From the IMG/VR virus record IMGVR_UViG_2833778570_000001, positions 1 to 64,000 of that record: 64,000 nucleotides of DNA; one strand, 5' to 3'. Origin of the DNA: a virus (Duplodnaviria > Caudoviricetes). Positions 22,788 to 59,000 of the stretch are shown in pieces; position 1 is the first letter of the stretch; every line of letters starts with the position of its first letter. The translations under genes were made by a program, and so were the position numbers. The notes beneath the pieces were generated by a model. That model had not been told where the DNA came from. It did not search any database and saw only the letters and a list, made by a program, of their open reading frames with translations.

Positions 22788-22877
22788 CGCTCAGGTCGTC
22801 CCGCGCGCCCTACCCAACAGGGCGCTCCATCAGCCGCGACTTAACTAGCAGCTTTGACCGTGCTGTCATGGATTGCC

Positions 22878-23519
22878 ATGACAGCTGCTTTCACCTTCCG
22901 CTGCCTCGCGAGCGCTGCCGCGCTTCTCTCTCTCGTCGGGTGCGGCTCGGCCACCATCGGCGGGGGCGGCAGCCCGGCGCGCGCGAAGTGGGTCGGGTCC
23001 GTCGTCAGGACACCAGACGGCGGGCAGCTCCGCACGACCATCTACTACGGGCCCTGGCAGTGCAGCGCCGCGTTCCTGTCCCGGTGCGAGTCGAAGTGCT
23101 CGGCACAGGGGCTCCCCCTCATGGGCTGCATCTGGCTGGCCGACATCAAGGGCGACTGGCAGGGCCGCTACCTCTTCATGCCCGCAGAGGCCGGGGGCCG
23201 CCTCGCCATCACCCACTGCTGCTGCGACTACCCGGCCGTGCCTGACGGCGAGGCGCAGCGGAGAATTTGGGAGCGCGGTCGCACGGCCTTCCGGCGCGAC
23301 TGGAGCACCGAGTTCGGCGACTGGCCGAAGACGGGCAAGACGAGCTGGCCCGGCCACCACATCTACGACCTGCTGCACGGAGGCCCTCCGCTCGCTGCGG
23401 GCAACATCCTCCCTGTCCCGCCCGACGTACACCTCGACTTCAACAGCGCCTACCCCGCCTGCTACGCCCCCAGGGGAAAGTGGCTGGCACCAGGCCCTGA
23501 GCGGCCCTACGTGGACTGA
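22878..23519 (+). CDS. Lipoprotein with a C-terminal HNH-type nuclease, SitA-like toxin
   Basis: LSLVG/C lipobox; Cys-rich middle; GHHIYDLLHGG...N...H...N. Confidence 0.8.
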   Translation: MTAAFTFRCLASAAALLSLVGCGSATIGGGGSPARAKWVGSVVRTPDGGQLRTTIYYGPWQCSAAFLSRCESKCSAQGLPLMGCIWLADIKGDWQGRYLFMPAEAGGRLAITHCCCDYPAVPDGEAQRRIWERGRTAFRRDWSTEFGDWPKTGKTSWPGHHIYDLLHGGPPLAAGNILPVPPDVHLDFNSAYPACYAPRGKWLAPGPERPYVD

Positions 23520-23529
23520 GGGCGCCATC

Positions 23530-23988
23530 ATGACCATGGACAGCCTGCTGAAGGAGTTCTCACGCCTCCACTTCCCCCGCCCACCAGCCGCTCCTGCGGA
23601 CATTGCCGCCTTCGAGTCCCGCGTCGGATGGAAACTGGATACGAACCTGCGCGCCTTCTACCTGCATTCCGATGGCGGAACGCTCTTCGAGGAAGAGCCC
23701 GACGCGAGCTACCGCATCCTCTCGCTCGCGGAGATCCGCCGGGCACGTGTTGCCATCATGGGCCGGGACGCCGACGAGTACGGGGCGCCATCGCAGTACA
23801 CGCTGGTGGACATGCAGGACACCAACTACGTCATCCTGGATGTGGCCCAGCTGGCTGGAGGCGCGTACCCGCTCTTCGATGCGTGGCACGAGACCTATCC
23901 AGTAGCGAAGCGCATTGCTTCCTCGTTCGCGGAGTTCCTGGAGCGCGCGATGCGGAGCGACGGCTTCTCGTACTGGCTGGGCGAGTGA
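23530..23988 (+). CDS. SMI1/KNR4 (SUKH) immunity protein
   Basis: DIAAFESRVGWKLDTNLRAFYLHSDGG...ILSLAEI...IASSFAEFLE. Confidence 0.9.
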   Translation: MTMDSLLKEFSRLHFPRPPAAPADIAAFESRVGWKLDTNLRAFYLHSDGGTLFEEEPDASYRILSLAEIRRARVAIMGRDADEYGAPSQYTLVDMQDTNYVILDVAQLAGGAYPLFDAWHETYPVAKRIASSFAEFLERAMRSDGFSYWLGE

Positions 23989-29006: not shown

Positions 29007-31136
29007 CTAGATGGGCTGCTTGATGTTGTGGCTGAGGAGGCCCGCGGACTCGTAAGTGCGGGCCCCGTGCACGGTGAGCTTCACGACGGCGCCCTCCCCT
29101 TCCGGCGCCACGCGGCGGACCAAGCCCGGGCGCAGTCCCTCCAGCAGTTCGCCGGGACGCAATGCGCGCAGCTCCGTCCAGCCCGCGAAGCGCCGGTAGA
29201 CGAGGTGGTTGGGCGTTGCCACCAGGACACGGCCGTCGGTGAGCTCCACCCGCCAGCGCGCGGCGCGGTGGATGGAGGCGGCCACCACCTCGAATACGCC
29301 CACGCGGCGCGTGTCCTCGTGCTGGGTGAGGACGCGCATACCCGGGCGAAGGGACGCCGCTGGTACCTCCCGCCTGTCCTCCAGGGCAATGGGCGTCTCG
29401 GGCGCGACGCACGTGCCGCCCGTCCCGCCGGAGCCGCCTCCCTCGCCGCCCGAGGGCCCCCCGCCGAAAGGCGAGGCAGTGGACTTCGCGAAGTTGATGC
29501 CCACCCCGGCGTTGTAGACGGGCGAGAACCACATGGAGGCGCTCACGCCGTAGACGCCGTGCACCTCACAGAGGAGCGCGACGTACTCCCCCAGGTTCTG
29601 CCCCCAGAGTCCCGCGAGGGCCGCCGGGGACTGGAAGGTGTGGCTGATGGCGACGCGGTTGAGCGCGTTGCCCTCCACGGCCGAAGCGTACTTCCGGTCC
29701 GGCAGGGGGATGTAGCGCGTGCCCCGGTACGTGGCGCTGACGCTGCTGTAGTAGTCCACCTTGAGGTAGCGGAGCGCATCCAGGTTGTCGTCGATGCTGG
29801 AGGGCTGGATGAAGAAGTGGTGCACCAGCCAGGAGTGGACGATGGGCGTCGTGTACCGGAAGTAGTCCGTGCACTGGACGTCCAGCCTGTCGATGAGCGG
29901 TGCGCCTCCGCGCACGCCCGTGTTGTTGCTGCCCCGGTAGTGGACGCGCCCCGCGGCCGACGTGCCGTCCAGCGCCTGGTTCGCCCTGAAGAAGGGCGTG
30001 TCCAGGAGGTAGCTGCCGATTTGGACGTTTCCACCGGCCGCCTTGAAGGCGGTGCCCACGTTGTCCAGCTTCGCTCCGGCCACGGGCACGCCGTTGCCGT
30101 CCTCCGCATAGTTGGACGTCTGGAGGGTGTTGGCCACCAGCAGGTCGAACGTCACCATCTTCCGCATGGAGACGGCGTCCAGGTACACGGCCTTCCCCGT
30201 GTCGGAATTGGCGGCGTTGATCTCGAAGTACAGCTGGACGCCGGTGCACCCCGCCGGGCAGGTGCCCTTCACCTTCACGCGCTGGTACGAGGTGGTGAGC
30301 GTGACGAAGGTGCTCGTGGACTGGCCGCCATAGGCACCGCTGGCATCCTCCCAGAGGAGAATCAGGTTGGCGCCAGGCTGGGCGAGCGCGGCGGAGGACT
30401 TCACCCAGGCCTCCGCGTAGAAGGAGTCCCCCGCGGTGCATTTGATGCGTCCTCCCGGGGCAGCGCTTTGGAAGCCGCCGATGAAGTTGAGCCCCGTGAA
30501 TCCACCACCGCTGGGCACCACCAGCTTGCGGCACCGGCGCCCCTCCTTCGCGTTGACGGGCTCCTCCACCAACGCGTCGCCCTCGGGGGACTTCCCCTGC
30601 GCATCCGCCTCCGAGTAGCCGTTGGGCACCAGGTTGTCCGTGGGCGGCAGCAGCAGGTGGGTGAAGCTGATGGCCGCCGTCGCCACCGCGGCACTGGTGA
30701 CGGAGCTGGCCGACATGTGCCTGGCGTAGACGCTGCCGGTGGGGACGTTGGAGAGGTCCGCCACGGCCATGGTGACGGTGTCCGGGTCGGCCACCACGCC
30801 ACCACCGAGGACACGCCAGCTGCTCTGGCTACCGTTGGTGTAGAGGGCCTGGACGGCGCACTGAACCTCCGTCTGCAGCGTCAGCTTCAGCGGCGCCACC
30901 CACCGCCTTTCCGAGGGGCCGAACTTCCGCGGCTCCAGCAGGTAGCTGTCGGTGTTGTTGGGGTCGCTGCCCTCGTAAACCACTACCTGGAAGCCCGAGA
31001 GGAGGTGCGCGGGGAGCACCTCGTCGTGCGTCCAGCGAATGTCCAGGTAGCGCGACTTGATGAGCTGCGGAGAGCGGACGCCGTCCACCTCGCGGTCGTA
31101 GATGCCGGCCGCTTCCTCCTGCTCGCGCGAGCGCAT
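29007..31136 (-). CDS. Tail fibre / receptor-binding protein with a C-terminal Hint domain
   Basis: FN3-like start, carbohydrate-binding-like beta sandwich, Gly linker, Hint motifs C1, TPNH, SHN. Confidence 0.8.
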   Translation of the reverse strand: MRSREQEEAAGIYDREVDGVRSPQLIKSRYLDIRWTHDEVLPAHLLSGFQVVVYEGSDPNNTDSYLLEPRKFGPSERRWVAPLKLTLQTEVQCAVQALYTNGSQSSWRVLGGGVVADPDTVTMAVADLSNVPTGSVYARHMSASSVTSAAVATAAISFTHLLLPPTDNLVPNGYSEADAQGKSPEGDALVEEPVNAKEGRRCRKLVVPSGGGFTGLNFIGGFQSAAPGGRIKCTAGDSFYAEAWVKSSAALAQPGANLILLWEDASGAYGGQSTSTFVTLTTSYQRVKVKGTCPAGCTGVQLYFEINAANSDTGKAVYLDAVSMRKMVTFDLLVANTLQTSNYAEDGNGVPVAGAKLDNVGTAFKAAGGNVQIGSYLLDTPFFRANQALDGTSAAGRVHYRGSNNTGVRGGAPLIDRLDVQCTDYFRYTTPIVHSWLVHHFFIQPSSIDDNLDALRYLKVDYYSSVSATYRGTRYIPLPDRKYASAVEGNALNRVAISHTFQSPAALAGLWGQNLGEYVALLCEVHGVYGVSASMWFSPVYNAGVGINFAKSTASPFGGGPSGGEGGGSGGTGGTCVAPETPIALEDRREVPAASLRPGMRVLTQHEDTRRVGVFEVVAASIHRAARWRVELTDGRVLVATPNHLVYRRFAGWTELRALRPGELLEGLRPGLVRRVAPEGEGAVVKLTVHGARTYESAGLLSHNIKQPI

Positions 31137-31146
31137 GCCCTCCCGT

Positions 31147-33627
31147 TTAGGGAGGCGGCGTGGACGAAATCCCCAGCGTGAGGGTGGCCGGCACCGTGGG
31201 CACGGACACCACCAGGGCGCTCGCCGCGCCGGTGCTGTAGTTGCCCGAGGTGTCGATGGCCTTCACGTGCACCAGGTGGTTGACGCCCGGCGGCGGCAGT
31301 GCCCACTCGTAGGTGGTGGCGCGCACCTTGCCGATGAGGGTGCCTGCCTCCCAGCTGGCGCCGTAGCGCAGCTCGTAGGTGTCCCTGTCCAGGTCCGGCA
31401 CCTCCGCCCAGCGCAGCGTCGCGGTGCTGCCGTTGAGGGCACAGGTGAGGCCCGTCACGTCGGAGGGCGGCGCAGCCTTGCCCACGACGGTGTAGCTGGC
31501 CGAGGCGTAGGTGGTGACGAGGCCGTTGAGGACGGCGGCCACCTGCACGGTGTACGCGCCCGGCAGGCAGTCCAGCAACTCCCAGTAGTGCGTCTGCACC
31601 GGCGTCTCCAACGTCCAGTTGCCGCCCTCGCGCTGCCAGCGCACCCGGTACTCGGTGGCGGTGGCCACCTGCGTCCACCGGGCCGTCGCCATGACTTTCA
31701 CGCCGCCATTCGTCGTCTTGTACAGCGACTCGCCCACCGCAAGGCCTGCGGGTGGCGCAGACAAAGGCAGCACGGACGTAGGCAGCGGCTGCAGCTTCAC
31801 TCCGTACTCCACCTCCGCGTACTTCCCCGGCTCGTGGCGCAGGGCGGTGATTTCGTAGAGGTGCGGCTCCACCTCCGCCACGTTGAGGATGCGCCAGAGG
31901 GTGGGCGTCAAGTCGGACGCGGCCAGCACCCAGACGGCCTGGGGCTGGGGCGCGGCAGAGAAGGGCGTGGCCACGGTGAGGGCGCGGTAGGGCGCCGGTG
32001 CGAGCGCGGCCAGCGGGCGCTCCTCCACGGTGCCATCCGGTAGCACTGCGGAGAGGGCGTACGTCTTCCCGGCTTCCAGGGTGACGTCCGCGTCGAACTC
32101 CACCTGGCTGGCGGTGGCAGCCACCACGCGCCCGCCCCACCGGCGTCCGGCCCGGTACGGGTCCTGGAGCTTCACCACGGCGCCGGGGTTGCGCATGGCG
32201 CCCTCGAAGCCGGTGCGGAACGTCACCGTCTCCGTCTCCAGCCTCTCGGTGAGGAGGAGCCACCGGCCCACGCGCTGCGCCTGGCCCCGGGAAGTACAGC
32301 CGAGCGCCACCACCTCGGTGGGGTTGTAGCCGTAGGTGGCGAGGCCCTCCTCGTCGGTGACGTACTCCTGCGCCGCCTTGAAGTGGTTGTCCGGGTCATT
32401 CCACGTCACCAGCGCGACGGTGTGCCGCGCGCGCTTCCCGCTGGAGGCGTAGGTGAAGAGGCCGTCCACCACGTTGGCCGGCGTGAAGAGGTACTCGGCG
32501 TCGCGCGGCGCGTCCTGGGCGACGAAGACGGCGCCGGAGGCCCAGTACGTCATGCCTCTGAAAACGGACGCGAGGTTGTTGATGACCTTGTACGCGTCCT
32601 CCTGCGTCTGGAGGTAGAGGTTGCAGCGGAAGCGCGGCTCCGTGCCGCCCTTCCCGTCCGGCACCAGCTCGTCGCAGTACTTCGCCACCGTGTAGAGGCC
32701 CCATTTGTCCACCGCGGCCTCGTTGAGGTAGCGGCCCAGGCCGTAGCGCTTCGTCGTGAGGAGGTCGTAGAAGCACCAAGCCGGGTTGTCCGTCCAGGCC
32801 ACCTTCCACGTGCCGTCCCAGGTGCCCTCGTACGTCCGGGCCACGGGGCTGTAGTTGCTGGGCACGCGCACCCGCAGCCCGCGAATCCGGTAGCTGCGCG
32901 TGGGGATGTTGCTGAACTGGCTGGCCGCCACCTGCAGCGCGCACAGCGCGGTGTTGGGGAAGCTGAGCTTCTCGTCCAGCAGCGTCGCGTAGGACTTCCA
33001 GATGACCTTGTTCTGCGTCGTCACGCTGTCCGCGTCCTCGCTGACGCGCGTGACGCGGATGTCCCAGGGCGGAGAGCCCGTCAGCTCCACGCGAAAGGTG
33101 CGCTCGTAGGGGCTGGTGCACTTCCCCCGGAAGAGTTCGGCGTCCTGGAAGGACTGCACCACGTACCCGCCCCCGTTGCTCTGCACAGCGATGGAGACGA
33201 GGACGCGGGTGGGCTTCAAGTCGCCCGTCGTGGGGTCCTGGTAGGTGAGCTGGGGCACCTGGAGGGTGACGCGCACGGCGTCCACCTCCGGGTCCGACAC
33301 CGTGCGCACCACCGGCGTGGCGCGCTTCACCTCGACGCCCACGGAGTGCTCCGCCTCGCCGGAGGGGAAGCCTGGGATGTACTCCTGCGACTGGGTGCCC
33401 TTCACGTCGTACACGGTGACGCCCGTGAAGTTGAAAGTGCCGTCGGGATTCTGGATGGCGACGCCGTCCAGGTAGACGGACTTCAGCCCGTCCACGAGGC
33501 CCTGAATCTCCCCCTCGCATAGCAAGTCCACCACGCGCGCCTTGGAGCTGGACTTCAGTGTGTTGGGAGACTCGACAGGGGTGCGCTGAGCGCCGCCCTC
33601 CCCTTTTCCGCCGCTGCTGCCGCCCAT
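31147..33627 (-). CDS. Host-specificity / central tail protein J (lambda gpJ-like)
   Basis: DLLCEGEIQGL, WTDNPAWCFYDLL, EPRFRCN, FN3 repeats. Confidence 0.92.
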   Translation of the reverse strand: MGGSSGGKGEGGAQRTPVESPNTLKSSSKARVVDLLCEGEIQGLVDGLKSVYLDGVAIQNPDGTFNFTGVTVYDVKGTQSQEYIPGFPSGEAEHSVGVEVKRATPVVRTVSDPEVDAVRVTLQVPQLTYQDPTTGDLKPTRVLVSIAVQSNGGGYVVQSFQDAELFRGKCTSPYERTFRVELTGSPPWDIRVTRVSEDADSVTTQNKVIWKSYATLLDEKLSFPNTALCALQVAASQFSNIPTRSYRIRGLRVRVPSNYSPVARTYEGTWDGTWKVAWTDNPAWCFYDLLTTKRYGLGRYLNEAAVDKWGLYTVAKYCDELVPDGKGGTEPRFRCNLYLQTQEDAYKVINNLASVFRGMTYWASGAVFVAQDAPRDAEYLFTPANVVDGLFTYASSGKRARHTVALVTWNDPDNHFKAAQEYVTDEEGLATYGYNPTEVVALGCTSRGQAQRVGRWLLLTERLETETVTFRTGFEGAMRNPGAVVKLQDPYRAGRRWGGRVVAATASQVEFDADVTLEAGKTYALSAVLPDGTVEERPLAALAPAPYRALTVATPFSAAPQPQAVWVLAASDLTPTLWRILNVAEVEPHLYEITALRHEPGKYAEVEYGVKLQPLPTSVLPLSAPPAGLAVGESLYKTTNGGVKVMATARWTQVATATEYRVRWQREGGNWTLETPVQTHYWELLDCLPGAYTVQVAAVLNGLVTTYASASYTVVGKAAPPSDVTGLTCALNGSTATLRWAEVPDLDRDTYELRYGASWEAGTLIGKVRATTYEWALPPPGVNHLVHVKAIDTSGNYSTGAASALVVSVPTVPATLTLGISSTPPP

Positions 33628-33628
33628 G

Positions 33629-34687
33629 TCAGTCCACCACCGTCGGGTCCGCCTTCTTCACGTTGTGGCTGAGGAGGCCGTCGGAGACGTAGGTGTGCGC
33701 GCCGGCCACGGTGAGGCGCACCACGGGCCCGTGCTCGCCCCGCGTCACCTGGCGCACCACGCCCGGCCGCGTGCCCACCAGCCGCACGCCGGCCGAGAGG
33801 TGGCGCAGCTCCATCCAGGCGTCCTCCGTCCGCACGCGGTGGTTGCCGGTGGCCTCCAGGCGCCGACCGTCCTCCAGCTCCAGCAACCACCGCACGCCTT
33901 CGGCGGGCTCCGCAGCGGTGACGAGGAAGTCTCCCCACTCCAGCGTCTCCTCGTCCTGGGTGCGCACCAGCATGCCCACCTGGACTTCGCCCGCGGGCAC
34001 CTCGCGCCCGTCCGCCAGGAGAATCGGCACCCACGGCGCGGGGCACGTGCCGCCGCCCGCTGGGGTTCCGCCGGGCCCCGTCTGCCCGCTGCCACCACTG
34101 CCCCCGAAGCCGCCGTCGGACCACTCAGTGACGAAGCCGGCGGAGACGACGCAGCTGCCCACTTCCATCTCTCCGTAGCAGATGGGCACCGGGTGGCCCT
34201 GGGCGAGCGTGTTGACGGGGCCATTGAAGACGTAGCTGGGCTTGTTGGCGTCGTCCTCGTCGGGCCCGGTGGCGGTGGGCGGGGCGAAGAGGAGCTGCGA
34301 GACGCCGCCCACCACCAGGGAAATGCCCGCGGTGATGAGGGGCACGCCCGCGCCGTACCCGTAGACGGTGAGGACGGCGCCGGCGGCGATGAGCACCGCG
34401 CCCGCTACCACCTGGAACCAGCCGGACTTCGCCCCGGCCAGGGCCGGCATGAAGGTGAGGACACGCGCGCCGGTGGGCATGCCCAGGTCGTCCTCACCGA
34501 CGTCCCGCTTGCCCGCGAAGACGTGGTAGCCGGGCTCGCTGTTCTCGGCCAGGTAGCGGCGGAAGCCGTCGCAGACGGCGGAGAGGGCCCGCACCGCCTC
34601 CGCAGGCGAGGGCACGGAGAGGTCCAGCTTCCACACGCGCCCGAAGCGCTTCCCCAGGGGCCCGCCCAGGACGATGGTCGTCAGCAT
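33629..34687 (-). CDS. Tail assembly protein I (lambda gpI-like) fused to a C-terminal Hint domain
   Basis: TIVLGGPLGKRFGR, SPAEAVRAL, GAKSG, FNGPVNT...PICYGE; then Hint. Confidence 0.9.
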   Translation of the reverse strand: MLTTIVLGGPLGKRFGRVWKLDLSVPSPAEAVRALSAVCDGFRRYLAENSEPGYHVFAGKRDVGEDDLGMPTGARVLTFMPALAGAKSGWFQVVAGAVLIAAGAVLTVYGYGAGVPLITAGISLVVGGVSQLLFAPPTATGPDEDDANKPSYVFNGPVNTLAQGHPVPICYGEMEVGSCVVSAGFVTEWSDGGFGGSGGSGQTGPGGTPAGGGTCPAPWVPILLADGREVPAGEVQVGMLVRTQDEETLEWGDFLVTAAEPAEGVRWLLELEDGRRLEATGNHRVRTEDAWMELRHLSAGVRLVGTRPGVVRQVTRGEHGPVVRLTVAGAHTYVSDGLLSHNVKKADPTVVD

Positions 34688-35412
34688 CGGGAAGCGTGCC
34701 TCACGACGCGTTGGGTGATGCGCTCCCAGAAGCCGGAGTACGTCTCCCGGCCGGACAGGCGCCCCATGACGTGGTGCAGGAGGACGTCCCCGCCCAGGTA
34801 CACGCCTGCGTGGTTGGGCACCGGGGCGCGCAGTTGCATGAGGAGGACGTCGTGCTCGCGCGGGGCTTTGCCCGTCACGTCCACGAAGCCCGCGCGGCCG
34901 AAGCCCTCCAGGTAGAGGTTGCCGCCCTTCGCCCACCAGTCGTCCGGGCGCTCGAAGTCGGGCAGCGCCAGGCCCAGGCGCTCCCAGTAGTAGTCCTGGA
35001 TGAGGGAGTAGCAGTCGAGGACGCCATGGCTGAAGGTGCGGCCCACCAGCGGCGGGCGGTAGCCGTCCGGGAAGTAGAGGCGCCAGTGCCCCACCGGGAC
35101 GTTGAGGATGAGCCAGGGCAGGCCCCAGCGCTCCATCATCACCCTGTCGGCCTCACTCGGTTCCGGCGCGGCGTTGGGGTGGGAGTGCACCACCGCCACC
35201 ACCTCGCCCTCCCCTTCTGCCTGAGCGTAGTCCTCCGGAGCTAGGACGAAGTGCGCCTGGCCGGCGGCGAGGTTCCGGCAGGGGCGGTACCGCTGGGCGC
35301 CGTCCACCAGCACCACGAGGCCGCAGGACTCGCGGGGGTAATCGGCCTGGGCGTGGGTGAGCGCGGCGCTCAGGACGTCATCAGCCAGCGTCAGCCGGCA
35401 GGGGTCGCTCAT
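34681..35412 (-). CDS. Tail assembly protein K (JAB + NlpC/P60)
   Basis: YPRESCG, HSHP...PSEAD, DCYSL, NHAGVY. Confidence 0.92.
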   Translation of the reverse strand: MSDPCRLTLADDVLSAALTHAQADYPRESCGLVVLVDGAQRYRPCRNLAAGQAHFVLAPEDYAQAEGEGEVVAVVHSHPNAAPEPSEADRVMMERWGLPWLILNVPVGHWRLYFPDGYRPPLVGRTFSHGVLDCYSLIQDYYWERLGLALPDFERPDDWWAKGGNLYLEGFGRAGFVDVTGKAPREHDVLLMQLRAPVPNHAGVYLGGDVLLHHVMGRLSGRETYSGFWERITQRVVRHASRC

Positions 35413-35545: not shown

Positions 35546-36280
35546 ATGACCTGGCAGCAATATGAACGAGCCATTCTGGAGAAGTTCTGGCGCGAGTTTC
35601 AGCCACCTCACTTCCGCGTGGAGCCATCAGGGGGAAACAGGCATTATTATACCGGTCGCCATTCAGGTGAGCTGAGACAACTGGATGTAGCAGTCTACCG
35701 ACGAGACGCGACTGCTCCGTTCTTGGTGGTTGACGCAAAGCATTGGCAGAACACTCTCGACATCAGCGACGTCGAGTCGTTCATAAGCTTCGTGGACGAT
35801 GTCGGAGCCACCCAGGGCGTGCTTGTTGCGAGTTCTGGTTTCTCTGAAGCTTCACCCCGCCGAGCGGCAGGAGCACCTGTGCCGATTCATTTGGAGATCG
35901 TCACGGCGAAGGAGGCATTGGAGTTGGATTGGCTCTGGCTGGGGCGAAAGCTCTTCCCGCAGGATTGGGCCTACCACCGTCATTTGGGCCATGCACTTCG
36001 CCTTATTGAAGGCAGCGGATCCGCAGCAGCGATTTCAGATGCGGTGGAAGGGGTTCCATTTGAGGAATGGGAGGCGGCCGTCAGCTTCGCGATCAACCAA
36101 CACCGCAGAGAAGCGCAGCATTTTCTCATTTGGGTAGCGACAAAGCACGACGACAGTGGATGGAGGTTCAATGCCGCCCGCCATCTCGCAGAAATCGGAC
36201 TGCTTACTGAATCCATCCGAAGCCAAGTCGTCGCCCTTGAAACGGACCCAACGGCATGCGCGATACTTGATGAAATGTAG
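35546..36280 (+). CDS. Mrr-like PD-(D/E)xK restriction endonuclease domain protein (moron)
   Basis: WQQYE, RQLDV, VDAKHW, GVLVASSGFS. Confidence 0.8.
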   Translation: MTWQQYERAILEKFWREFQPPHFRVEPSGGNRHYYTGRHSGELRQLDVAVYRRDATAPFLVVDAKHWQNTLDISDVESFISFVDDVGATQGVLVASSGFSEASPRRAAGAPVPIHLEIVTAKEALELDWLWLGRKLFPQDWAYHRHLGHALRLIEGSGSAAAISDAVEGVPFEEWEAAVSFAINQHRREAQHFLIWVATKHDDSGWRFNAARHLAEIGLLTESIRSQVVALETDPTACAILDEM

Positions 36281-36500
36281 AAATCACACAGCAGCTATCC
36301 GCTGAACCGTCCAAGGTAGGCCCTTTCCATCCACCAACCGAACGGCCACCGCCGTCCGCGCCAGCCATTCACTTGCACTGGCTTGCCTCGGCAAAGAGTC
36401 CCGGGACCTCCCGGAGCGTCGCCATGCCTTTGTAGGAGGCCGAAGGGGAGAGCCCAGAAGACGGCTCCATGCGTCGTACGTCTACTCCGGGAGCTCGTAC

Positions 36501-37763
36501 CTGAGCCATCCCCTCATATGAAACCGAGCGCTTCTTTGAAGACAGGGTGCTGATGGAGGAGTTCGGCGAAGCGCTCGACGAGAGGCCGCAATCGCTCCTC
36601 CTTCATCATGGGAATGGCTTGGTAATACATGCAGCCCTGCCGGAAGAGCGAGTAGGTGCGTGTCTTGACGGTATTGGCCTTCAAGCCCTTCTCCATCCCG
36701 AGACTCTCCCCCGCGGCGCCCAGCAGCGTCAGCAGCACCTGGGCCAGGGCGCTCACCAGCAGCAGCCTGTCTCTGCGCTCGGGACTCTTCACGCGCACCG
36801 TGGACAGTCCCATCCCGAATCTCAAGTCCTTGACGTCCCGGAACGTCTCCTCGCACGAGAAACGCCGGGCGTAGAGGTCCACCACCTGGCGCGCGCTGGC
36901 GGCTCCCAGGCTGGTGGCCAGACACCACGGCTCCTTCATGCCCTTCTGGCGCACCAGCACCACCGCGGGCACCGGCGTGCGGTCCGCCGTCACGTGCACG
37001 TCCGTCAGCTTCTTGGCGTGCCCGCTGGTGGGAATCCACCTGGCCGCGGGACACCCGGTGCCGCCGGCCACCTCCACCCGCACGTCCTTGCGAAAGCGCA
37101 CCACGTACTCGAAGCCCGCCTGGGCCAAAAGGGCGTACAACCGCTGGTCCGCGAAGCCCCGGTCCGCCAGCACCGTCACCTTCACCCCTTCGGGCACGCA
37201 CTCCTTGAGCCGCAGCAGCAGCTCATCCTCCGCCTGGGCGCGGTTGCCCGCCAGCGCGCTCTTCTGCAGCGTCAGCCACAGCAGGGGCGTGGTGCGTCCA
37301 TGCGAGGTGACGAGGCTGGCCACCAGGGTGGTGTGGTCATCGGCCTCGAAGTCCGTCCAGTCCAGCGCCACCAGCGCTTCGGTGCGCTCGGCCAGCACGT
37401 ACGGCACCCACGAGGCCGCCAGCTTCCACACGTCCACCGCCTCGTTGGACAGCAGTCGGTCCACCTGCTTGATGCCGTGCTTCTCACGCCGCCTCGCGCC
37501 CACGCCAGCGCCTGGCCAATGGCGTGCACCGACAGCGACGCGGCGTGCACCACCCCCAACGTCGCGTGCGCCAGCGACAGCACCCTCTTGGCGTGCAGGT
37601 CCTCCTCGAACAAGCTCTCCAGGAACCTCAGCACCTGCTCTTCGTTGATGGCCACCTTGCGTCCCAGCATGGCCTCTCTTCCTGCTCCCCACCACTCCGC
37701 CTCGCACGGGCCTGGCAGGCAGGCGGCTGGCGATCAGCTTGCCGAAATGAGGGGATCTCTCAG
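36501..37763 (-). mobile_element. IS4-family insertion sequence (1263 bp)
   Basis: 17-bp TIRs CTGAG(CC/AG)ATCCCCTCAT; 9-bp target duplication AGCTCGTAC at 36492 and 37764. Confidence 0.92.
36514..37670 (-). pseudogene. IS4 DDE transposase with a 1-nt frameshift near 37490
   Basis: N-terminal part MLGRKV...WARGG and main part EKHGIKQVD...ALDWTD...LADRGF...YARRFSCEETFRDVK are in different frames. Confidence 0.85.
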
Positions 37764-38962
37764 AGCTCGTACAGCAGGGTGTCGAGCAGTGCGATCCGAC
37801 ATCTCCAGACCCGCGCCTCAACCGGCACCAGTGGACGTGAAGCGGCAAACCAGGGAAAGGACCAAAGGGTGTCGAGGAACTTGACGTAGGTGGTCGCGCT
37901 GGTCGGGACAGTTCCGAAGACCTGCCAGAGACGCCTTCGGTTGGCGTTGTTGACCGAGAGGAAGACGTCCGGCCGTTTCATGGCGAGAAGGCGGGTGGCA
38001 GCTCCCAACCCAACACCCCTCAGAGCAAGAACTCCGTCGAGGTAGGCCTCAACCACGTCGTGCGACACACGCCCCCTGACTGGAACAGCATCCAAGAAGC
38101 GCCCCAACTGCTTGGGAGAGTCGGTGGTGAGCTGCTTGAAGTAGCCCGCCCCTTGCATTCGCCCAAAGTAGCCGGTGGTGTCCCGCCCCCATCCAGCCAC
38201 CAGCTTGCGCTCATCTTCTGGCATTGAAGCGAACGCTGGCCAACGATGGAACGCTTCCCGACAGGCTTCGGCCTCCCCTAGATAAGAGCCGTCCGGGTGA
38301 TCGAAAACGCGAATCTCAAAACCGTTAGCCAGAGCCCGCCTCTCCTGACGAGCGATGAGGGCATAATATCCCGCCCAGTCGCAACTTAGGTCTCCCAGGC
38401 ACACTGCGGCGTTAGCAGGCAAAGGCTGGGGCGCCTTCTTTATTGGAGGCTTAGGCCTGCTTTCATACAATTCATGATATGCGGCCAACCATGCCGCGCT
38501 TGGCGTGAATGCACGCGGGTCGTGCCAAGCTGCATCCACAAACGAAAGCAGGGTGCCCGCAGCATTGCACTGAGCATCTCCCTCAAAAAGGACGTTCAGT
38601 TCCGTGTTCCCATGAAAGCCTCCCCGGGTGAAGTTCGAAGATCCCCAGAGAGCACGCACCTGCCCTCCGCGTCGTCCGACAAGCAACTTCGGATGGAAGA
38701 CACCAGAGGTGTCCTCAATGACACGAAGGACTTTAGCATTGCCAAGTTCGACCAGAACCTGGGGCTCGGTCTGAGCGAAGTGGATCCCGATAACGGCCCG
38801 GCGGACACGCTCAAGGGGTAGGCACTTCCAATGCTCTGCTGTTCCTCCAGCCGAGCTAGCCCACGCGTAAACCAAGTCAATATCCGAGGCCCAAGCCACA
38901 AGCCTGCGAAGCGCATCCATCGTATCTGCTGTAGATGCCAAGACCGTGAAATTCTCTGCCAT
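37760..38962 (-). CDS. Phospholipase D (HKD) family nuclease, NgoFVII/BfiI-like
   Basis: FHPKLLV...WGSSNFTRGG...NTELN, long C-terminal domain; lower GC. Confidence 0.8.
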   Translation of the reverse strand: MAENFTVLASTADTMDALRRLVAWASDIDLVYAWASSAGGTAEHWKCLPLERVRRAVIGIHFAQTEPQVLVELGNAKVLRVIEDTSGVFHPKLLVGRRGGQVRALWGSSNFTRGGFHGNTELNVLFEGDAQCNAAGTLLSFVDAAWHDPRAFTPSAAWLAAYHELYESRPKPPIKKAPQPLPANAAVCLGDLSCDWAGYYALIARQERRALANGFEIRVFDHPDGSYLGEAEACREAFHRWPAFASMPEDERKLVAGWGRDTTGYFGRMQGAGYFKQLTTDSPKQLGRFLDAVPVRGRVSHDVVEAYLDGVLALRGVGLGAATRLLAMKRPDVFLSVNNANRRRLWQVFGTVPTSATTYVKFLDTLWSFPWFAASRPLVPVEARVWRCRIALLDTLLYEL

Positions 38963-39218
38963 ACAATTGGCCTCCAGGCCAAAGAGCGTCGCAGAAAATG
39001 AGACATCCAACCCAGATGCCCCACCGCGTCTACCGCCGTTGCGTCACCAATGCCGACCAAATGACCATTATGCTGTTGGGAAAAATAGCAGTGCTCCCAG
39101 AGCCCCAGAACTGTGTGGACATGACTTTGGCGGCTCACACCATAGGTCATATTATCCAGAGAGGTACCGGTCTACTTCAACGACCGACCAGTAGACTTCC
39201 GCGAAGAAGAAGTCGCTC

Positions 39219-40127
39219 TCAGATGACCTCAAACGCAGGTTCTGCGTTCTCTGTGACACGAGTCGCCAGCACGCTTTTCCGCCGCAAGGGGTCCGCCTTC
39301 GACCGGTCCTTCGCGCTCTTCTGGACGAGGTCGGCGCGGTGAATCACCTCGCTCGCCTGAGCCTTCACATCCTTCACGGCCACGAGGCCACACGAGGATG
39401 ACAGGTGACGAGGTTCCCCTTTCACTTTGACCGTTTCCCCTGAGAGCGATGCCAGCGCTGCACCCATGCGCCTCTGAGCCTGTTCCAGTGGCGTTGCTGG
39501 CATAACAACGACGACCTCGTCACCGCCCTTCCGGTAGGCGTCCCCAACATCGGACACGGCCTTCTCGATGGCATGGAAGAAGGCCTTGATGGCTTCGTCC
39601 CCCGTTGCATGGTCGCCGTCTTCGTTGAACGCCTTGAGCCCGTTCATGTCGAGGTAGGCCACCGACACCGGCGACTCCTCCTGGATGTTCATGATGGCAA
39701 TCGCCAAGTCGCGCTCCGCATGGCGACCGTCATAAAGGATTCCAAACGGTTCATGCAGACGAGTGGAACGAAGCTGGTCCTGCAGCTCCGCCAACCGGAG
39801 ACGGCCCAAGTGCCCCAGTTCCAACTCTACACTCTGGCCATCTAGGAGCCTTGAGACAAACTCCGCGCGACCGAGTCGCTCCCTCCGCTCAAGTTCCTCT
39901 GCAACCGCGTCGAGGCCGCCACTGCCTGGCACGTAAAGGCTCTTCCTGATGTCGGGGCCATTGATCATCCCCCTAAAGAAGAGGGAGAGGACCATCTGTA
40001 CTTCCTTTGCAGCCTCGAATGATCCCCCTCCCCCTCTCGGGAATTGCCTACTGACCCACCGAGTCTGCTCGAACCGGGCAAGAAATTGTAATTCCAGGAA
40101 GCGAGCATCATTTTTGTACTCTGCCAT
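39219..40127 (-). CDS. GGDEF-domain diguanylate cyclase-like protein
   Basis: YLDMNGLKAFNE...HATGDEAI...YRKGGDEV...SCGL...ADL. Confidence 0.85.
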   Translation of the reverse strand: MAEYKNDARFLELQFLARFEQTRWVSRQFPRGGGGSFEAAKEVQMVLSLFFRGMINGPDIRKSLYVPGSGGLDAVAEELERRERLGRAEFVSRLLDGQSVELELGHLGRLRLAELQDQLRSTRLHEPFGILYDGRHAERDLAIAIMNIQEESPVSVAYLDMNGLKAFNEDGDHATGDEAIKAFFHAIEKAVSDVGDAYRKGGDEVVVVMPATPLEQAQRRMGAALASLSGETVKVKGEPRHLSSSCGLVAVKDVKAQASEVIHRADLVQKSAKDRSKADPLRRKSVLATRVTENAEPAFEVI

Positions 40128-43404: not shown

Positions 43405-44691
43405 CTAGTGAGTTTCTGGCCCAGCCACGACAGCGCCTGAACTCTTGCGGCCAGCATGGATAATATAGTTCAACGCCATATTGGCAGGCCGGGTCTCAGT
43501 ATCGCCCCCCCCGACCCCGTGACCATGGCCCCCGCCGGAAATACCGTGCCCACGGTCCAAACGCGGCTCTCCGGGAGTATTGTCGGCACTATGCAGCGTC
43601 TGTACCCCATCCGACTCCAAAACAATGCCGCCATGCGAGTGAGAGCCATCGCCAGTCACTTTGAACGGCACCTTAGGCATGGCTGTCGCATAACCCTGAA
43701 CCGATCCGAGCTGCCGGTTCGCGCCATCCACATCGCGATTTTCCCCATCTCCACTTCCATTCAACCCTCGCACAAAACGCCCACGCAGATCAGGCACACG
43801 GAAGTGCTCAAACTTAGCCCCATAGACGTCTTGAATAACGACGGCGAGCTCCGGATATGCCTTTGCACTGTAGAACCCCCCATCACACAGTAGCCAACCA
43901 TCAGGGGGCGTCGTCCCGGCAAACGCCACGACAGATCCAATCGGAATTGGCGCTGCCTCTCTCTTAACCGGCGGAGCAAGCGCAGGAAAATGATACACAA
44001 TCTGCCCTTCCTCCGAATCAACCGTAAGCGTTGCGCTCTGCGCGACGCGGAATCCACCCTCAAGCCCCATCTTGCGAGAGCAGACCATATTAACTGCTCT
44101 ATTCGTAATGGTCCCCCCACGCAGAGCCATTTCTGCCAGAGATCCAGTGCAAGAAAATGCCCCCGCAGGACTCATCTGAAGTCGTTCGAGTCGCACAGAG
44201 GAGCCTTGGCTTCCATGACTAAGTGACATGGCAAACGCACCATAGTCTGGGCGCATCGAGTAGCGAACCTGAAGTCCTCGAACTCCAAGCGCCATGCACT
44301 GATTAAATGCATCCCACGCCTTGGGATTGATACGTTTGATATTTACCTGCAACTCACTCTTGACGTTCACAAGCTCAGAGTCTTCTCGCGTAAACAGCTT
44401 GGCCGTAGCTTCAGCTTCTTCTTTCGAGTAATGGCCGCCCAGCGAGAATGGTCCAAAGCCGACTCCCCCTCCTCCCCCGGCAGCCGCGCTTTGCGAACGA
44501 CTCTCGCTCTCAAGGATCGCAGCCCGAACGTCCGAGAGCTGAAGCGACGAATTCTTTTCGCTGTAATAGTCGTAGACCCCCTGTCGCAGTATCTCCACAC
44601 AATAGCTCTGCTCTGCATGAGCCGAACTCGCCATTGTCGTCACAGCGACCATGAGCGCAACACAGTTCACTTGGAGTCGCGTCCGAATCAT
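43405..44691 (-). CDS. Signal-peptide protein with a C-terminal phage tail-collar domain
   Basis: AHA/E signal; PIGSVVAFAG...GWLLCDG...YPEL...VPDLRGRFVRG...ETRPANMALNYII. Confidence 0.85.
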   Translation of the reverse strand: MIRTRLQVNCVALMVAVTTMASSAHAEQSYCVEILRQGVYDYYSEKNSSLQLSDVRAAILESESRSQSAAAGGGGGVGFGPFSLGGHYSKEEAEATAKLFTREDSELVNVKSELQVNIKRINPKAWDAFNQCMALGVRGLQVRYSMRPDYGAFAMSLSHGSQGSSVRLERLQMSPAGAFSCTGSLAEMALRGGTITNRAVNMVCSRKMGLEGGFRVAQSATLTVDSEEGQIVYHFPALAPPVKREAAPIPIGSVVAFAGTTPPDGWLLCDGGFYSAKAYPELAVVIQDVYGAKFEHFRVPDLRGRFVRGLNGSGDGENRDVDGANRQLGSVQGYATAMPKVPFKVTGDGSHSHGGIVLESDGVQTLHSADNTPGEPRLDRGHGISGGGHGHGVGGGDTETRPANMALNYIIHAGRKSSGAVVAGPETH

Positions 44692-57037: not shown

Positions 57038-58509
57038 GCAGCCCTCCCGCCGACGGGCAGCTGCTGGCCCTGCGGCACTTGGCCACCCGCTGCCGGCGCC
57101 GTGCGCAGGCTGCCCAGCGCGGGACCCTCGCTCGCAAGGCGCTCCCCGTCCACCTCCACGTCGAAGTCGGCCATGAGGACACCGCGGCGCTTGAGCTCCG
57201 CCAGGAAGGCGTCGCGGGAAATCTCCCGGGCCGCCCGCGCCTTGAAGAGGACGTCCAGGCCCTGCGCGTCGGACTCGGAGATGCCGAAGTCGGTGTGCAC
57301 CTCCACCTTCAGCTTCGCGTCCTCCACCTCCAGCCCCAGCCACCGGGCCGCGAAGTAGAAGGCCAGCTCCAGCGCGTCGCTGAAGGACTCCGCCATGGCC
57401 TGCAGCTCGGAGTGGGCCTGGGCGGTGTTGATGGACTTTTCGGTGGCCGTGGGAGTGCCGGAGCGCCGGACGAGGAGCTCCACGCCCAGCATGGCCATCT
57501 CGTCCTTCAGGTCCTCCAGGTCCTGCCGGCCAGCCGTGATGGCCGCGCCGGTGTGCTCCACGTAGTAGAACTTCCCCTGCGGACTGCTTGTGGTGAGGAG
57601 CGCGTGGGGCCCCACCGTCACCTTCCCCGAGCCTCGCCCCTCCCCTTCCCCGCGGTCCTGCTCCAGCCCCGAGGCCGCCAGCATGGGGAAGCGCGCCACG
57701 GTGAGGACGTTCCGCTGGTCGCTGGCGGACTGCCAGTGCTCCACGTTCTTGTCCGCCAGGTCCATCAGTGGAGGCTTCGCGGCGCACAGGGCCGTGCGCT
57801 CCCCGGCGTACCAGGTGACGAGGGGGATGAAGCCCAGCGTGTTGGGGCCGCTCGCTGCCTGCTTCCACTCGCTGGTGCCGCTGCGCTCGTAGACGGCCCA
57901 GGTGTCGCGCTCGAGGACGCGCACCCGCTCCACCTGCACCTCTTCGAAGCCGTCCCGGCGCGTCTCGCATTCGCGGATGCGCACGTGGGTGAGCACCTCC
58001 ACCCCGCCCACCGTTTCCGCATACGCGGCGATGAGGGACTCGGCGGAGACGTGCACGAAGTACGGGCGGAGGCCGGCGCGCTGCTCGTCCTCCAGCGTCC
58101 GCACCGTCTCCGGATCCACCACCGGGAAGTCCACGAGGATGTGGGCGAGGCCCTTGGACAGGCCATCCCGGAAGACGCCGCGGGCCCAGGCGGTGATGTC
58201 GCTGCCCTGCCTGTCCACGTCGTCCACCAGGACACGCAGCGGCTCGGGCGCGGAGTCGCCCAGGCGCACGGGCTTGGCGAAGGGCTTCGCGGCGAGGTTG
58301 CGCACCGTCTTGCCGAAGACGTTGAGGAGGACGGCGCGCGCCAGGCGCTCCTTGTACGCGTCCTCCTCCTCCGCGTGGTAGCGCGGCAGGTAGGTGCGGC
58401 CAGCGGCGCGCATGGTGCTGGTGCCGCCCAGGAGGGCCAGGACGAGGGCCCACGCGGGCTGCATGGCCCGGTAGGCGCTGCTGGGGGTGCTGACGTCGGC
58501 GGCACTCAT
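57034..58509 (-). CDS. Portal protein (DUF4055-like)
   Basis: YLPR...EE.D.Y..RL.RA, RPYFVH, IPLV, PPL.DLA.KN..HWQ. Confidence 0.9.
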   Translation of the reverse strand: MSAADVSTPSSAYRAMQPAWALVLALLGGTSTMRAAGRTYLPRYHAEEEDAYKERLARAVLLNVFGKTVRNLAAKPFAKPVRLGDSAPEPLRVLVDDVDRQGSDITAWARGVFRDGLSKGLAHILVDFPVVDPETVRTLEDEQRAGLRPYFVHVSAESLIAAYAETVGGVEVLTHVRIRECETRRDGFEEVQVERVRVLERDTWAVYERSGTSEWKQAASGPNTLGFIPLVTWYAGERTALCAAKPPLMDLADKNVEHWQSASDQRNVLTVARFPMLAASGLEQDRGEGEGRGSGKVTVGPHALLTTSSPQGKFYYVEHTGAAITAGRQDLEDLKDEMAMLGVELLVRRSGTPTATEKSINTAQAHSELQAMAESFSDALELAFYFAARWLGLEVEDAKLKVEVHTDFGISESDAQGLDVLFKARAAREISRDAFLAELKRRGVLMADFDVEVDGERLASEGPALGSLRTAPAAGGQVPQGQQLPVGGRAA

Positions 58510-59000
58510 TCCGCAGGCTCCATGCGGCGGATGGCCGCCTCACCGCGCACCGCGGTGAAGACGCTCGCCACCACGTGGCCCTGCATGGCGGACGGGCCGG
58601 AGAGCAGCAGGTGCAGCACCTCCGGCCGCTCGGCGTTGAGGGTTTCGCGGACGGAGGCCTCGTCGGTGCGCGACAGCCGGGCAGGCCCGCCCGGGTGGGT
58701 GTGCCAGTCGCCCAGGTAGCGCAGGCGCGGGCGCAATCGTTCGAGGAGGCGGTTGTCGTGGAGGCGATCCGCGTCGTAGCCCACGCGTCCGCGCATGGCA
58801 TTCCGCCCGGGGCCGGTGATGGCGAGTACGTGGGCCTCGCCGTCCACCACGGCGCCCAGCAGCAGGCCGCCCGTCTCCAGCGGGGCGCGCACCCGCGCCA
58901 GGCGCAGGGCCTTGGCCAGGACGCCGGGCGCCAAGCGCACGCGGTACCCGTCCGAGACGTAGAGGGCCGGCGCGGACGCAGTCGGCAGGGGGCAGGCCAT
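58506..59000 (-). CDS. Stand-alone JAB/MPN (Mov34) metalloprotease
   Basis: ETGGLLLG, ITGPG, YLGDWHTHP...LSRTD. Confidence 0.88.
   Translation of the reverse strand: MACPLPTASAPALYVSDGYRVRLAPGVLAKALRLARVRAPLETGGLLLGAVVDGEAHVLAITGPGRNAMRGRVGYDADRLHDNRLLERLRPRLRYLGDWHTHPGGPARLSRTDEASVRETLNAERPEVLHLLLSGPSAMQGHVVASVFTAVRGEAAIRRMEPAE

What the first reader, a model, noticed from the sequence alone, without database searches (positions are those of the whole stretch)
33629..34687. Ubiquitin-fold tail protein gpI fused to a non-splicing Hint domain: possible self-activating conjugation module
Seen: a normal gpI runs into a Gly-rich linker ending GGGT, then a complete Hint domain (Cys1 codon at 34045, block B TGNH, block G SHN) and a 10-aa tail VKKADPTVVD. 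The +1 residue is Val, not Cys/Ser/Thr, and the block F Asp position is Arg. Established: lambda gpI has a beta-grasp/ubiquitin-like N-terminal fold, gpK carries a JAB domain, and type A bacterial intein-like (BIL) Hint domains autocleave without a +1 nucleophile. Inference: the Hint domain could activate the gpI C-terminus as a thioester and hand it to water or to an amine on another tail protein. That would give E1-independent processing or covalent cross-linking of the tail tip, with gpK JAB as a possible trimming enzyme.
Basis: partly seen in the sequence, partly recalled or inferred. Interest (0 to 1): 0.9.

Follow-up and report, generated by a model that had tools for sequence, protein, structure and literature searches.

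The report
Lysine-flanked Hint on phage tail plug
The protein that plugs the tail tip of this myxobacterial prophage ends in a real intein-like (Hint) self-cutting domain followed by an almost invariant lysine; it most likely cuts itself out and reattaches the short end-peptide, and it is not placed to activate the protein's ubiquitin-like domain as first proposed.

Summary
Observation confirmed: lambda-type gpI (352 aa) carries a complete 128-aa Hint domain (Cys215, His283, His341-Asn342; Arg in place of the block-F Asp; Val at +1). Fold confirmed (Z about 20 to inteins and BIL domains). The ubiquitin-like fold ends at residue ~86, 129 residues before the Hint junction, and is removed during maturation in a gpI homologue. 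gpK is the same with or without the Hint. Type A BILs can splice, so 'non-splicing' is not established. Hint-less gpI relatives often end in a Gly run plus ~11 residues, the same layout that excision plus ligation would restore (38 vs 36 residues). Best model (0.5): self-excision with cis ligation through the tail amine, probably an isopeptide at Lys344, as in Tetrahymena BIL2. Cleavage only 0.25; trans cross-linking 0.12. The Hint is patchy on gpI, was probably gained at least twice, and a second copy caps the fibre. No paper describing it was found; this scan noted the same module on other DNA. No activity was tested.

The parts
33629..34687 (-). gpI-Hint gene, 352 aa (lambda-type tail tip plug protein with C-terminal Hint)
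34430..34687 (-). Ubiquitin-like beta-grasp domain, aa 1-86; conserved Gly85 marks its C-terminus; probably cut off during maturation
   Evidence: SAMP1 Z 9.9, MoaD Z 9.2-9.7; for processing in homologues
34289..34429 (-). Hydrophobic helical hairpin, aa 87-133
   Evidence: AF2 helices 86-108 and 114-133
34121..34288 (-). Plug segment, aa 134-189; with the second helix it corresponds to lambda gpI 134/135-223, the trimer resolved in the tip lumen
34046..34120 (-). Gly-rich linker, aa 190-214; Thr214 is the -1 residue (thioester position)
33662..34045 (-). Hint domain, aa 215-342: Cys215, Thr280/His283 (block B), Arg324 in place of the block-F Asp, His331, Ser340-His341-Asn342
33632..33661 (-). 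10-aa C-terminal peptide; Val343 (+1) and the family-conserved Lys344 (+2, codon 33658-33656), proposed amine nucleophile
34681..35412 (-). gpK (JAB + NlpC/P60), ordinary; no sign of a link to the Hint
31147..33627 (-). gpJ, proximal part of the central tail fibre (826 aa)
29007..31136 (-). Distal fibre protein (709 aa) ending in a second Hint of the same family (Cys576-Asn704 at 29411..29025, Lys at +2; 53% aa identity to the gpI Hint)

Best explanation
gpI carries a BIL-like Hint inserted between its Gly-rich linker and a short terminal peptide. Steps: (1) Cys215 forms a thioester with Thr214 (inferred from invariant Cys/His). (2) An amine on the adjacent tail attacks it in cis, most likely the side chain of Lys344 (isopeptide, as for Tetrahymena BIL2), or the alpha-amine of Val343 after step 3 (type A BIL route). 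(3) Asn342 cyclises and releases the ~14 kDa Hint. The product is gpI ending in Gly linker + ~10 residues, the layout found in many Hint-less relatives. Separately, the N-terminal Ubl is probably removed as in other gpI proteins. The Hint is then a self-removing module that moves among Gly-rich ends of tail proteins; for gpI it is optional. Shown: fold, residues, Lys conservation, patchy distribution, matching filled/empty layout, purifying selection. Inferred: all chemistry. Why the module is kept (neutral passenger, folding or timing aid) is open.
For: Cys1 167/172, block-B His 172/172, Asn 169/172 aligned domains. Lys at +1..+3 in 156 of 166 domains; background 2.3%. Non-circular checks: 43 of the 55 domains lacking Lys at +2 have it at +1, which the profile did not reward; a Tim44-domain family found through its non-Hint part has Lys at +1 in 30 of 30. 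Lys moves between +1 and +2 but is almost never replaced by Arg, which fits amine chemistry better than packing or charge (inference). 56 of 166 domains have more than 100 residues after them, some in tandem arrays separated only by Lys-Gly-Gly, where ligation is the simplest way to keep the host whole. Hint-less gpI: 46 of 178 end in a Gly run + peptide (median 11 aa; extension 36 aa); predicted spliced Hint-plus extension is 38 aa; sister proteins P0048/P0097 (Hint) and P0022/33/55 (none) share the linker up to the junction. gpI Hints keep longer tails (median 9) than other terminal Hints (median 5). Lys344 lies in the confidently modelled part. Precedents: PMC8616854, PMC4031507.
Against: No activity was tested. 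In characterised type A BILs cleavage dominates over splicing. The block-F Asp is replaced (Lys 66, Arg 32, Asn 26 of 172), so the Lys might instead act as a general acid/base. Empty sites have Lys in the first three residues in only 3 of 46: the Lys travels with the Hint, so there is no host-derived insertion site as in true inteins. Many gpI end with no extension at all (69 of 178), so the ligated peptide need not matter. The distance from Lys344 to the thioester could not be measured. Tail-length statistics are not corrected for relatedness.
Confidence: 0.5

Rival explanations
1. Cleavage only: the Hint cuts itself off by thioester hydrolysis (with or without Asn cyclisation) and acts as a removable cap or timer; the Lys helps catalysis but is not ligated.
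For: Cleavage dominates in type A BILs. 88 of 166 domains have tails of 20 residues or fewer. gpI works with no extension in many phages. The block-F Asp is missing.
Against: Does not explain internal and tandem copies with long C-terminal parts, the strict Lys-not-Arg rule at a shifting position, or the match between spliced and Hint-less layouts.
Confidence: 0.25
2. Trans conjugation (first reader, minus the ubiquitin link): the gpI thioester is captured by a Lys or N-terminus of another virion or host protein, cross-linking the tail tip without E1.
For: BIL2 conjugates in trans as well as in cis. Natural gpI-gpJ fusions (L046) suggest the gpI C-terminus is near the gpJ N-terminus, which has a Gly-rich stretch with a Lys. 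The module is concentrated on tail and virion proteins.
Against: A built-in Lys two residues from the active site should win (inference). The gpJ N-terminal Lys is equally present in Hint-less phages and a free N-terminal Gly is not conserved among Hint-plus loci. gpI and fibre Hints are gained and lost independently. Capture by a neighbouring subunit's tail Lys would not cross-link gpI subunits, because that tail is cut from its own gpI (inference). The plug must be released on infection, which a covalent link to gpJ could hinder (inference).
Confidence: 0.12
3. The Hint is not processed in vivo and stays as a folded domain outside the tip.
For: The gpI C-terminus tolerates other folded additions (P0270 FN3-like by inspection; P0020/P0036/P0045/P0101; gpI-gpJ fusion L046).
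Against: Near-invariant Cys, His, His-Asn and Lys across proteins under 50% identical.
Confidence: 0.08
4. Ubiquitin-like cycle: the Hint activates the gpI Ubl and gpK JAB edits the conjugate.
For: Ubl, JAB and Hint genes are adjacent.
Against: The Ubl ends 129 residues before Cys215; the N-terminal region is lost from mature homologues; gpK is unchanged in Hint-less loci; the -1 residue is not a conserved Gly; the same Hint sits on fibres and Tim44 proteins with no Ubl.
Confidence: 0.03

Closest known systems
Type A bacterial intein-like (BIL) domains / PT-HINT (PF07591); C. thermocellum BIL, PDB 2LWY
   Same: HINT fold (Z 18.9-19.4), Cys1, block-B His, terminal His-Asn, no Cys/Ser/Thr at +1, no endonuclease; family profile hits 2LWY at E 2e-10.
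   Different: No PT-HINT hit for the window protein; near-invariant Lys at +1/+2; block-F Asp absent; preceded by a Gly run; found at the ends of phage tail proteins.
Tetrahymena BUBL1 BIL2 (PDB 6Y75/6TMM; PMC8616854)
   Same: Same fold (Z 19.1-19.6); ATP-free transfer of the N-terminal partner onto a Lys side chain is the chemistry proposed here.
   Different: BIL2 directly follows a Ubl's C-terminal Arg-Gly-Gly; here the Ubl is 129 residues away and the acceptor would be a 10-aa peptide. 17-19% identity.
Class 1 mini-inteins (NpuDnaB, SspDnaB, gp41-1)
   Same: Best structural matches (Z 20-20.5); blocks A, B, F, G recognisable.
   Different: No +1 Cys/Ser/Thr, no block-F Asp, sits in a low-complexity terminal region rather than a conserved active site, and the putative nucleophile travels with the element.
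Hedgehog Hint (Hog) autoprocessing domain
   Same: C-terminal Hint that would activate the host C-terminus as a thioester (Z 18.1-18.3).
   Different: No sterol-recognition region (10-aa tail); keeps His-Asn.
Lambda gpI / gpK and F-pyocin PA0640 / PA0639
   Same: Same gene order, Ubl + hydrophobic hairpin + plug; JAB-NlpC neighbour.
   Different: None of the solved or GenBank phage gpI proteins carries a Hint.

Membership tests
Lambda-type gpI (TAPI) | Sequence match to the gpI family | tested here: met
   PHROG 32 E 2e-54; lambda gpI E 1e-21; Pfam PF06805 is just under its cut-off
Lambda-type gpI (TAPI) | N-terminal beta-grasp domain ending in a conserved Gly | tested here: met
   SAMP1/MoaD Z 9.2-9.9 over residues 1-86; Gly85 invariant
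Lambda-type gpI (TAPI) | Between gpK and gpJ | tested here: met
Type A BIL | HINT fold | tested here: met
Type A BIL | Cys1, block-B His, terminal His-Asn | tested here: met
Type A BIL | No conserved Cys/Ser/Thr at +1 | tested here: met
   +1 is Lys, Ala, Val, Ile, Leu, Met in most of 166 domains
Type A BIL | Match to the PT-HINT (PF07591) profile at its cut-off | tested here: not met
   No hit at E<=0.1 for the window protein; 6 of 18 relatives hit, best E 4e-8
Type A BIL | Located in variable regions of non-conserved bacterial proteins | tested here: inconclusive
   Variable Gly-rich end, but of a conserved phage structural protein; bacterial Tim44-domain hosts also exist
Type A BIL | Autocleavage / aminolytic splicing | not testable with these tools
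   needs expression
Class 1 intein | Cys/Ser/Thr at +1 | tested here: not met
   Val343
Class 1 intein | Block-F Asp | tested here: not met
   Arg324; Asp is not among the eight commonest residues in the family
BUBL-type Ubl-BIL conjugation | Ubl C-terminal Gly directly before Cys1 | tested here: not met
   Ubl ends at ~86, Cys1 is 215
BUBL-type Ubl-BIL conjugation | Isopeptide to a Lys downstream of the Hint | not testable with these tools
   A candidate Lys344 is present and conserved; the bond is untested and the primary BIL2 paper was not held
Hedgehog Hog | Sterol-recognition region after the Hint | tested here: not met
   10-aa tail
Type C BIL of predatory bacteria | Type C motifs and upstream PPS-1 domain (recalled from memory) | not tested
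   Paper not found in the library; no profile available

The most novel reading that the evidence does not exclude
Phage tail proteins use a lysine-dependent Hint as an ATP-free ligase, and in the assembled tip the gpI thioester is transferred in trans to a lysine of another virion protein (or of a host protein), making covalent isopeptide links in a siphophage tail tip.
Probability: 0.12. Interest if true: 0.9.

Novelty: new variant of a known kind. Interest (0 to 1): 0.55.

Why it matters
If the Lys is the nucleophile, this is a large, apparently undescribed class of compact (128-aa) splicing domains that join proteins through a lysine side chain without ATP, so far shown only for one ciliate locus. 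That would extend intein chemistry and offer a small tool for isopeptide ligation. The gpI case gives an unusually clean test: filled and empty versions of the same site, a 10-residue C-terminal partner, and cultured Corallococcus, Myxococcus and Pyxidicoccus lysogens. It would also mean annotated lengths of many phage tail proteins are precursors. If only cleavage occurs, it is a modest addition: a self-removing cap on tail proteins.

Tried and rejected
Ubl activation and gpK editing: rejected on geometry and distribution. A dedicated two-Hint system: rejected; L009/L010/L029 have the gpI Hint only, L026 the fibre Hint only, and the two window copies are 53% identical and do not group together with support. 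Sortase-like capture by an N-terminal Gly of gpJ: not conserved among Hint-plus loci. Frameshift between gpJ and the 709-aa gene: the split is conserved in relatives, fused only in L024. Replacement of the Hint by an S74 chaperone in Hint-less fibre homologues: not seen. Curated Hint profiles do not reach their cut-offs. Ten literature searches found no description of Hint domains ending phage tail proteins; the library lacks most subscription papers, including the primary BIL2 paper and the type C BIL paper. No GenBank phage has a full-length match. True empty sites in the Tim44 family were not found; the short homologues were fragments. No complex prediction was run: gpI-gpJ is a textbook pair and would not discriminate between the models. 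P0007 (frameshift) and P0011 (truncation) may be assembly errors and were not used as evidence.

Full report
Context. The window is most of a 78-kb virus record with a lambda-like morphogenesis operon on the minus strand: terminase, portal, capsid, tube, tape measure, gpM, gpL, several inserted genes, gpK, gpI, gpJ, a distal fibre gene and lysis genes. The nearest gpI proteins are from Corallococcus (96%), Pyxidicoccus (70%) and Myxococcus (68-69%), so this is a Myxococcaceae prophage, probably of Corallococcus (inference).

Observation. Residues 2-188 are an ordinary gpI. Residues 215-342 are a Hint domain: sequence profiles are weak, but the AF2 model has pLDDT 94 and matches inteins, the C. 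thermocellum BIL and Tetrahymena BIL2 at Z 19-20.5. Cys215, His283 and Asn342 are invariant or nearly so among 172 aligned family domains; the block-F Asp position is mostly Lys, Arg or Asn. The domain is under purifying selection (omega 0.14-0.22 in three groups of close orthologues, similar to the plug), which shows it is maintained but does not separate a useful module from a self-excising passenger.

The ubiquitin link does not hold. The beta-grasp domain is real (SAMP1 Z 9.9; the MoaD C-terminus aligns at residue 86), but the Hint junction is 129 residues downstream, after a hydrophobic hairpin, the plug and a Gly linker. In lambda only gpI 134/135-223 is resolved, as a trimer plugging the tip lumen (PMC10721106, PMC12617516); this aligns to roughly residues 112-200 here. 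[quoted passage not shown] The JAB of gpK was predicted to cut after the Ubl's Gly (PMC1779556), and its motif is the same in loci with and without the Hint. The residue before Cys1 in gpI Hints is Gly in 11 of 19 and otherwise varied. So Ubl/JAB processing and the Hint are best read as separate events at opposite ends of the plug.

In 18 Hints from related loci the invariant columns are Cys1, His69, Asn128 and Lys130. A profile search of 1.84 billion representatives gave 2,773 proteins at E<=1e-10 (this count will include other Hint types). In the best 150 proteins, 156 of 166 complete domains have Lys at +1 to +3 (109 at +2, 45 at +1), against 2.3% Lys further along the tails. The profile rewards Lys at +2, so two independent checks matter: 43 of 55 domains without it have Lys at +1, and a bacterial Tim44-domain family retrieved by its non-Hint part has Lys at +1 in 30 of 30, between Gly runs and more than 300 residues from the C-terminus. 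A third of the domains are internal, some as tandem arrays. Terminal members are mostly on gpJ-like and other tail proteins.

Filled and empty sites in gpI. Of 200 gpI homologues, 22 have a complete Hint. Among the 178 without, extensions are bimodal; 46 end in a Gly run plus a peptide of median 11 residues (whole extension 36). Removing the Hint from the Hint-plus proteins and joining the flanks gives a median of 38. Sister proteins with and without the Hint share the linker up to the junction. The Lys belongs to the element: only 3 of 46 empty sites have one in the first three residues. On a gpI tree the Hint label needs 7 changes, 2 forced by well-supported branches (FastTree), and two very different Hint subtypes occur on gpI (support 100/99, long branches). 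At least two gains are likely; the direction of individual changes was not tested with a root. Among the 80 best IMG/VR gpI loci only 4 carry it. The gpI C-terminus also tolerates other additions, including fusion to gpJ, so the site is permissive.

Second Hint. The 709-aa distal fibre protein ends in a Hint of the same family (53% identity; 249 of 384 bases). Relatives have both, gpI only, or fibre only, so the two are independent. In four host genomes the only close copies (E<1e-50) are these prophage tail genes.

Mechanism. Type A BILs can splice without a +1 nucleophile, by aminolysis of the N-terminal thioester, though cleavage dominates (PMC4031507). Tetrahymena BIL2 makes an isopeptide to a Lys without ATP, in cis and in trans (PMC8616854). 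I commit to self-excision with cis ligation, most likely through Lys344 (0.5). Every chemical step is inferred. Cleavage only (0.25) remains strong. Trans cross-linking (0.12) needs an outside amine to beat one two residues from the active site; capture by a neighbouring subunit's tail would not cross-link gpI, since that tail is cut from its own chain (inference). An unprocessed domain (0.08) and a Ubl/JAB cycle (0.03) are unlikely.

Comparison and novelty. It works like a type A BIL with BUBL-like chemistry; it fails the PT-HINT profile cut-off, the class 1 intein tests and the Ubl-adjacent test for BUBL. I found no paper on such modules in phage tails, within a library that lacks most subscription journals. 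This scan has noted the same glycine-Hint-lysine module on other DNA, including the same pair in a Myxococcus prophage; those notes are unchecked and are not counted as evidence. What this case adds is the filled/empty-site match on gpI and the separation of the Hint from the Ubl. Verdict: real, new variant of a known kind, directly testable; interest 0.55.

Noticed in passing
window 58506-59000 (-): A second, stand-alone JAB-domain gene (Prok-JAB E 3.5e-13) between terminase and portal; present in 5 of 5 related prophage records at 62-93% identity. Possible counter-defence deconjugase; untested.
   Followed up: partly
window 31147-33627 and 29007-31136 (-): The central fibre is split into gpJ (826 aa) and a distal 709-aa protein in all close relatives; L024 has one fused 1467-aa gene lacking the first ~140 residues of the distal protein.
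   Followed up: partly
P0133 and P0349-P0418 (Tim44-domain family): Bacterial proteins with signal peptide, a short Arg-Gly-rich stub, one to five Lys-flanked Hints, then a Tim44-domain membrane protein; splicing would leave a stub resembling the ubiquitin Gly-Gly-Lys remnant.
   Followed up: partly
gpI homologues, e.g. P0028, P0271, P0274: A recurring, unexplained C-terminal appendage on Hint-less gpI: Gly run followed by a short, often Trp/Pro-rich peptide (46 of 178).
   Followed up: partly
window 35546-40127: Genes inserted between gpL and gpK: Mrr-like nuclease (35546-36280 +), IS4-family transposase (36514-37848 -), and two lower-GC ORFs (37760-39010, 39219-40127 -), the second with a GGDEF-like motif by eye. 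The gpL-gpK gap varies among relatives.
   Followed up: no
window 43405-44691 (-): 428-aa protein with a phage tail collar domain (E 8e-18) between tape measure and gpM.
   Followed up: no
window 22854-23988 (+): Lipoprotein-like ORF followed by an SMI1/KNR4-like ORF by inspection; noted earlier by the scan as a possible kin-discrimination toxin-immunity pair.
   Followed up: no
P0007, P0011: gpI homologues whose Hint is frameshifted or truncated; could be natural loss or assembly error.
   Followed up: no
P0167: A 3144-aa tape-measure-like protein with a Lys-flanked Hint 127 residues from its C-terminus.
   Followed up: no
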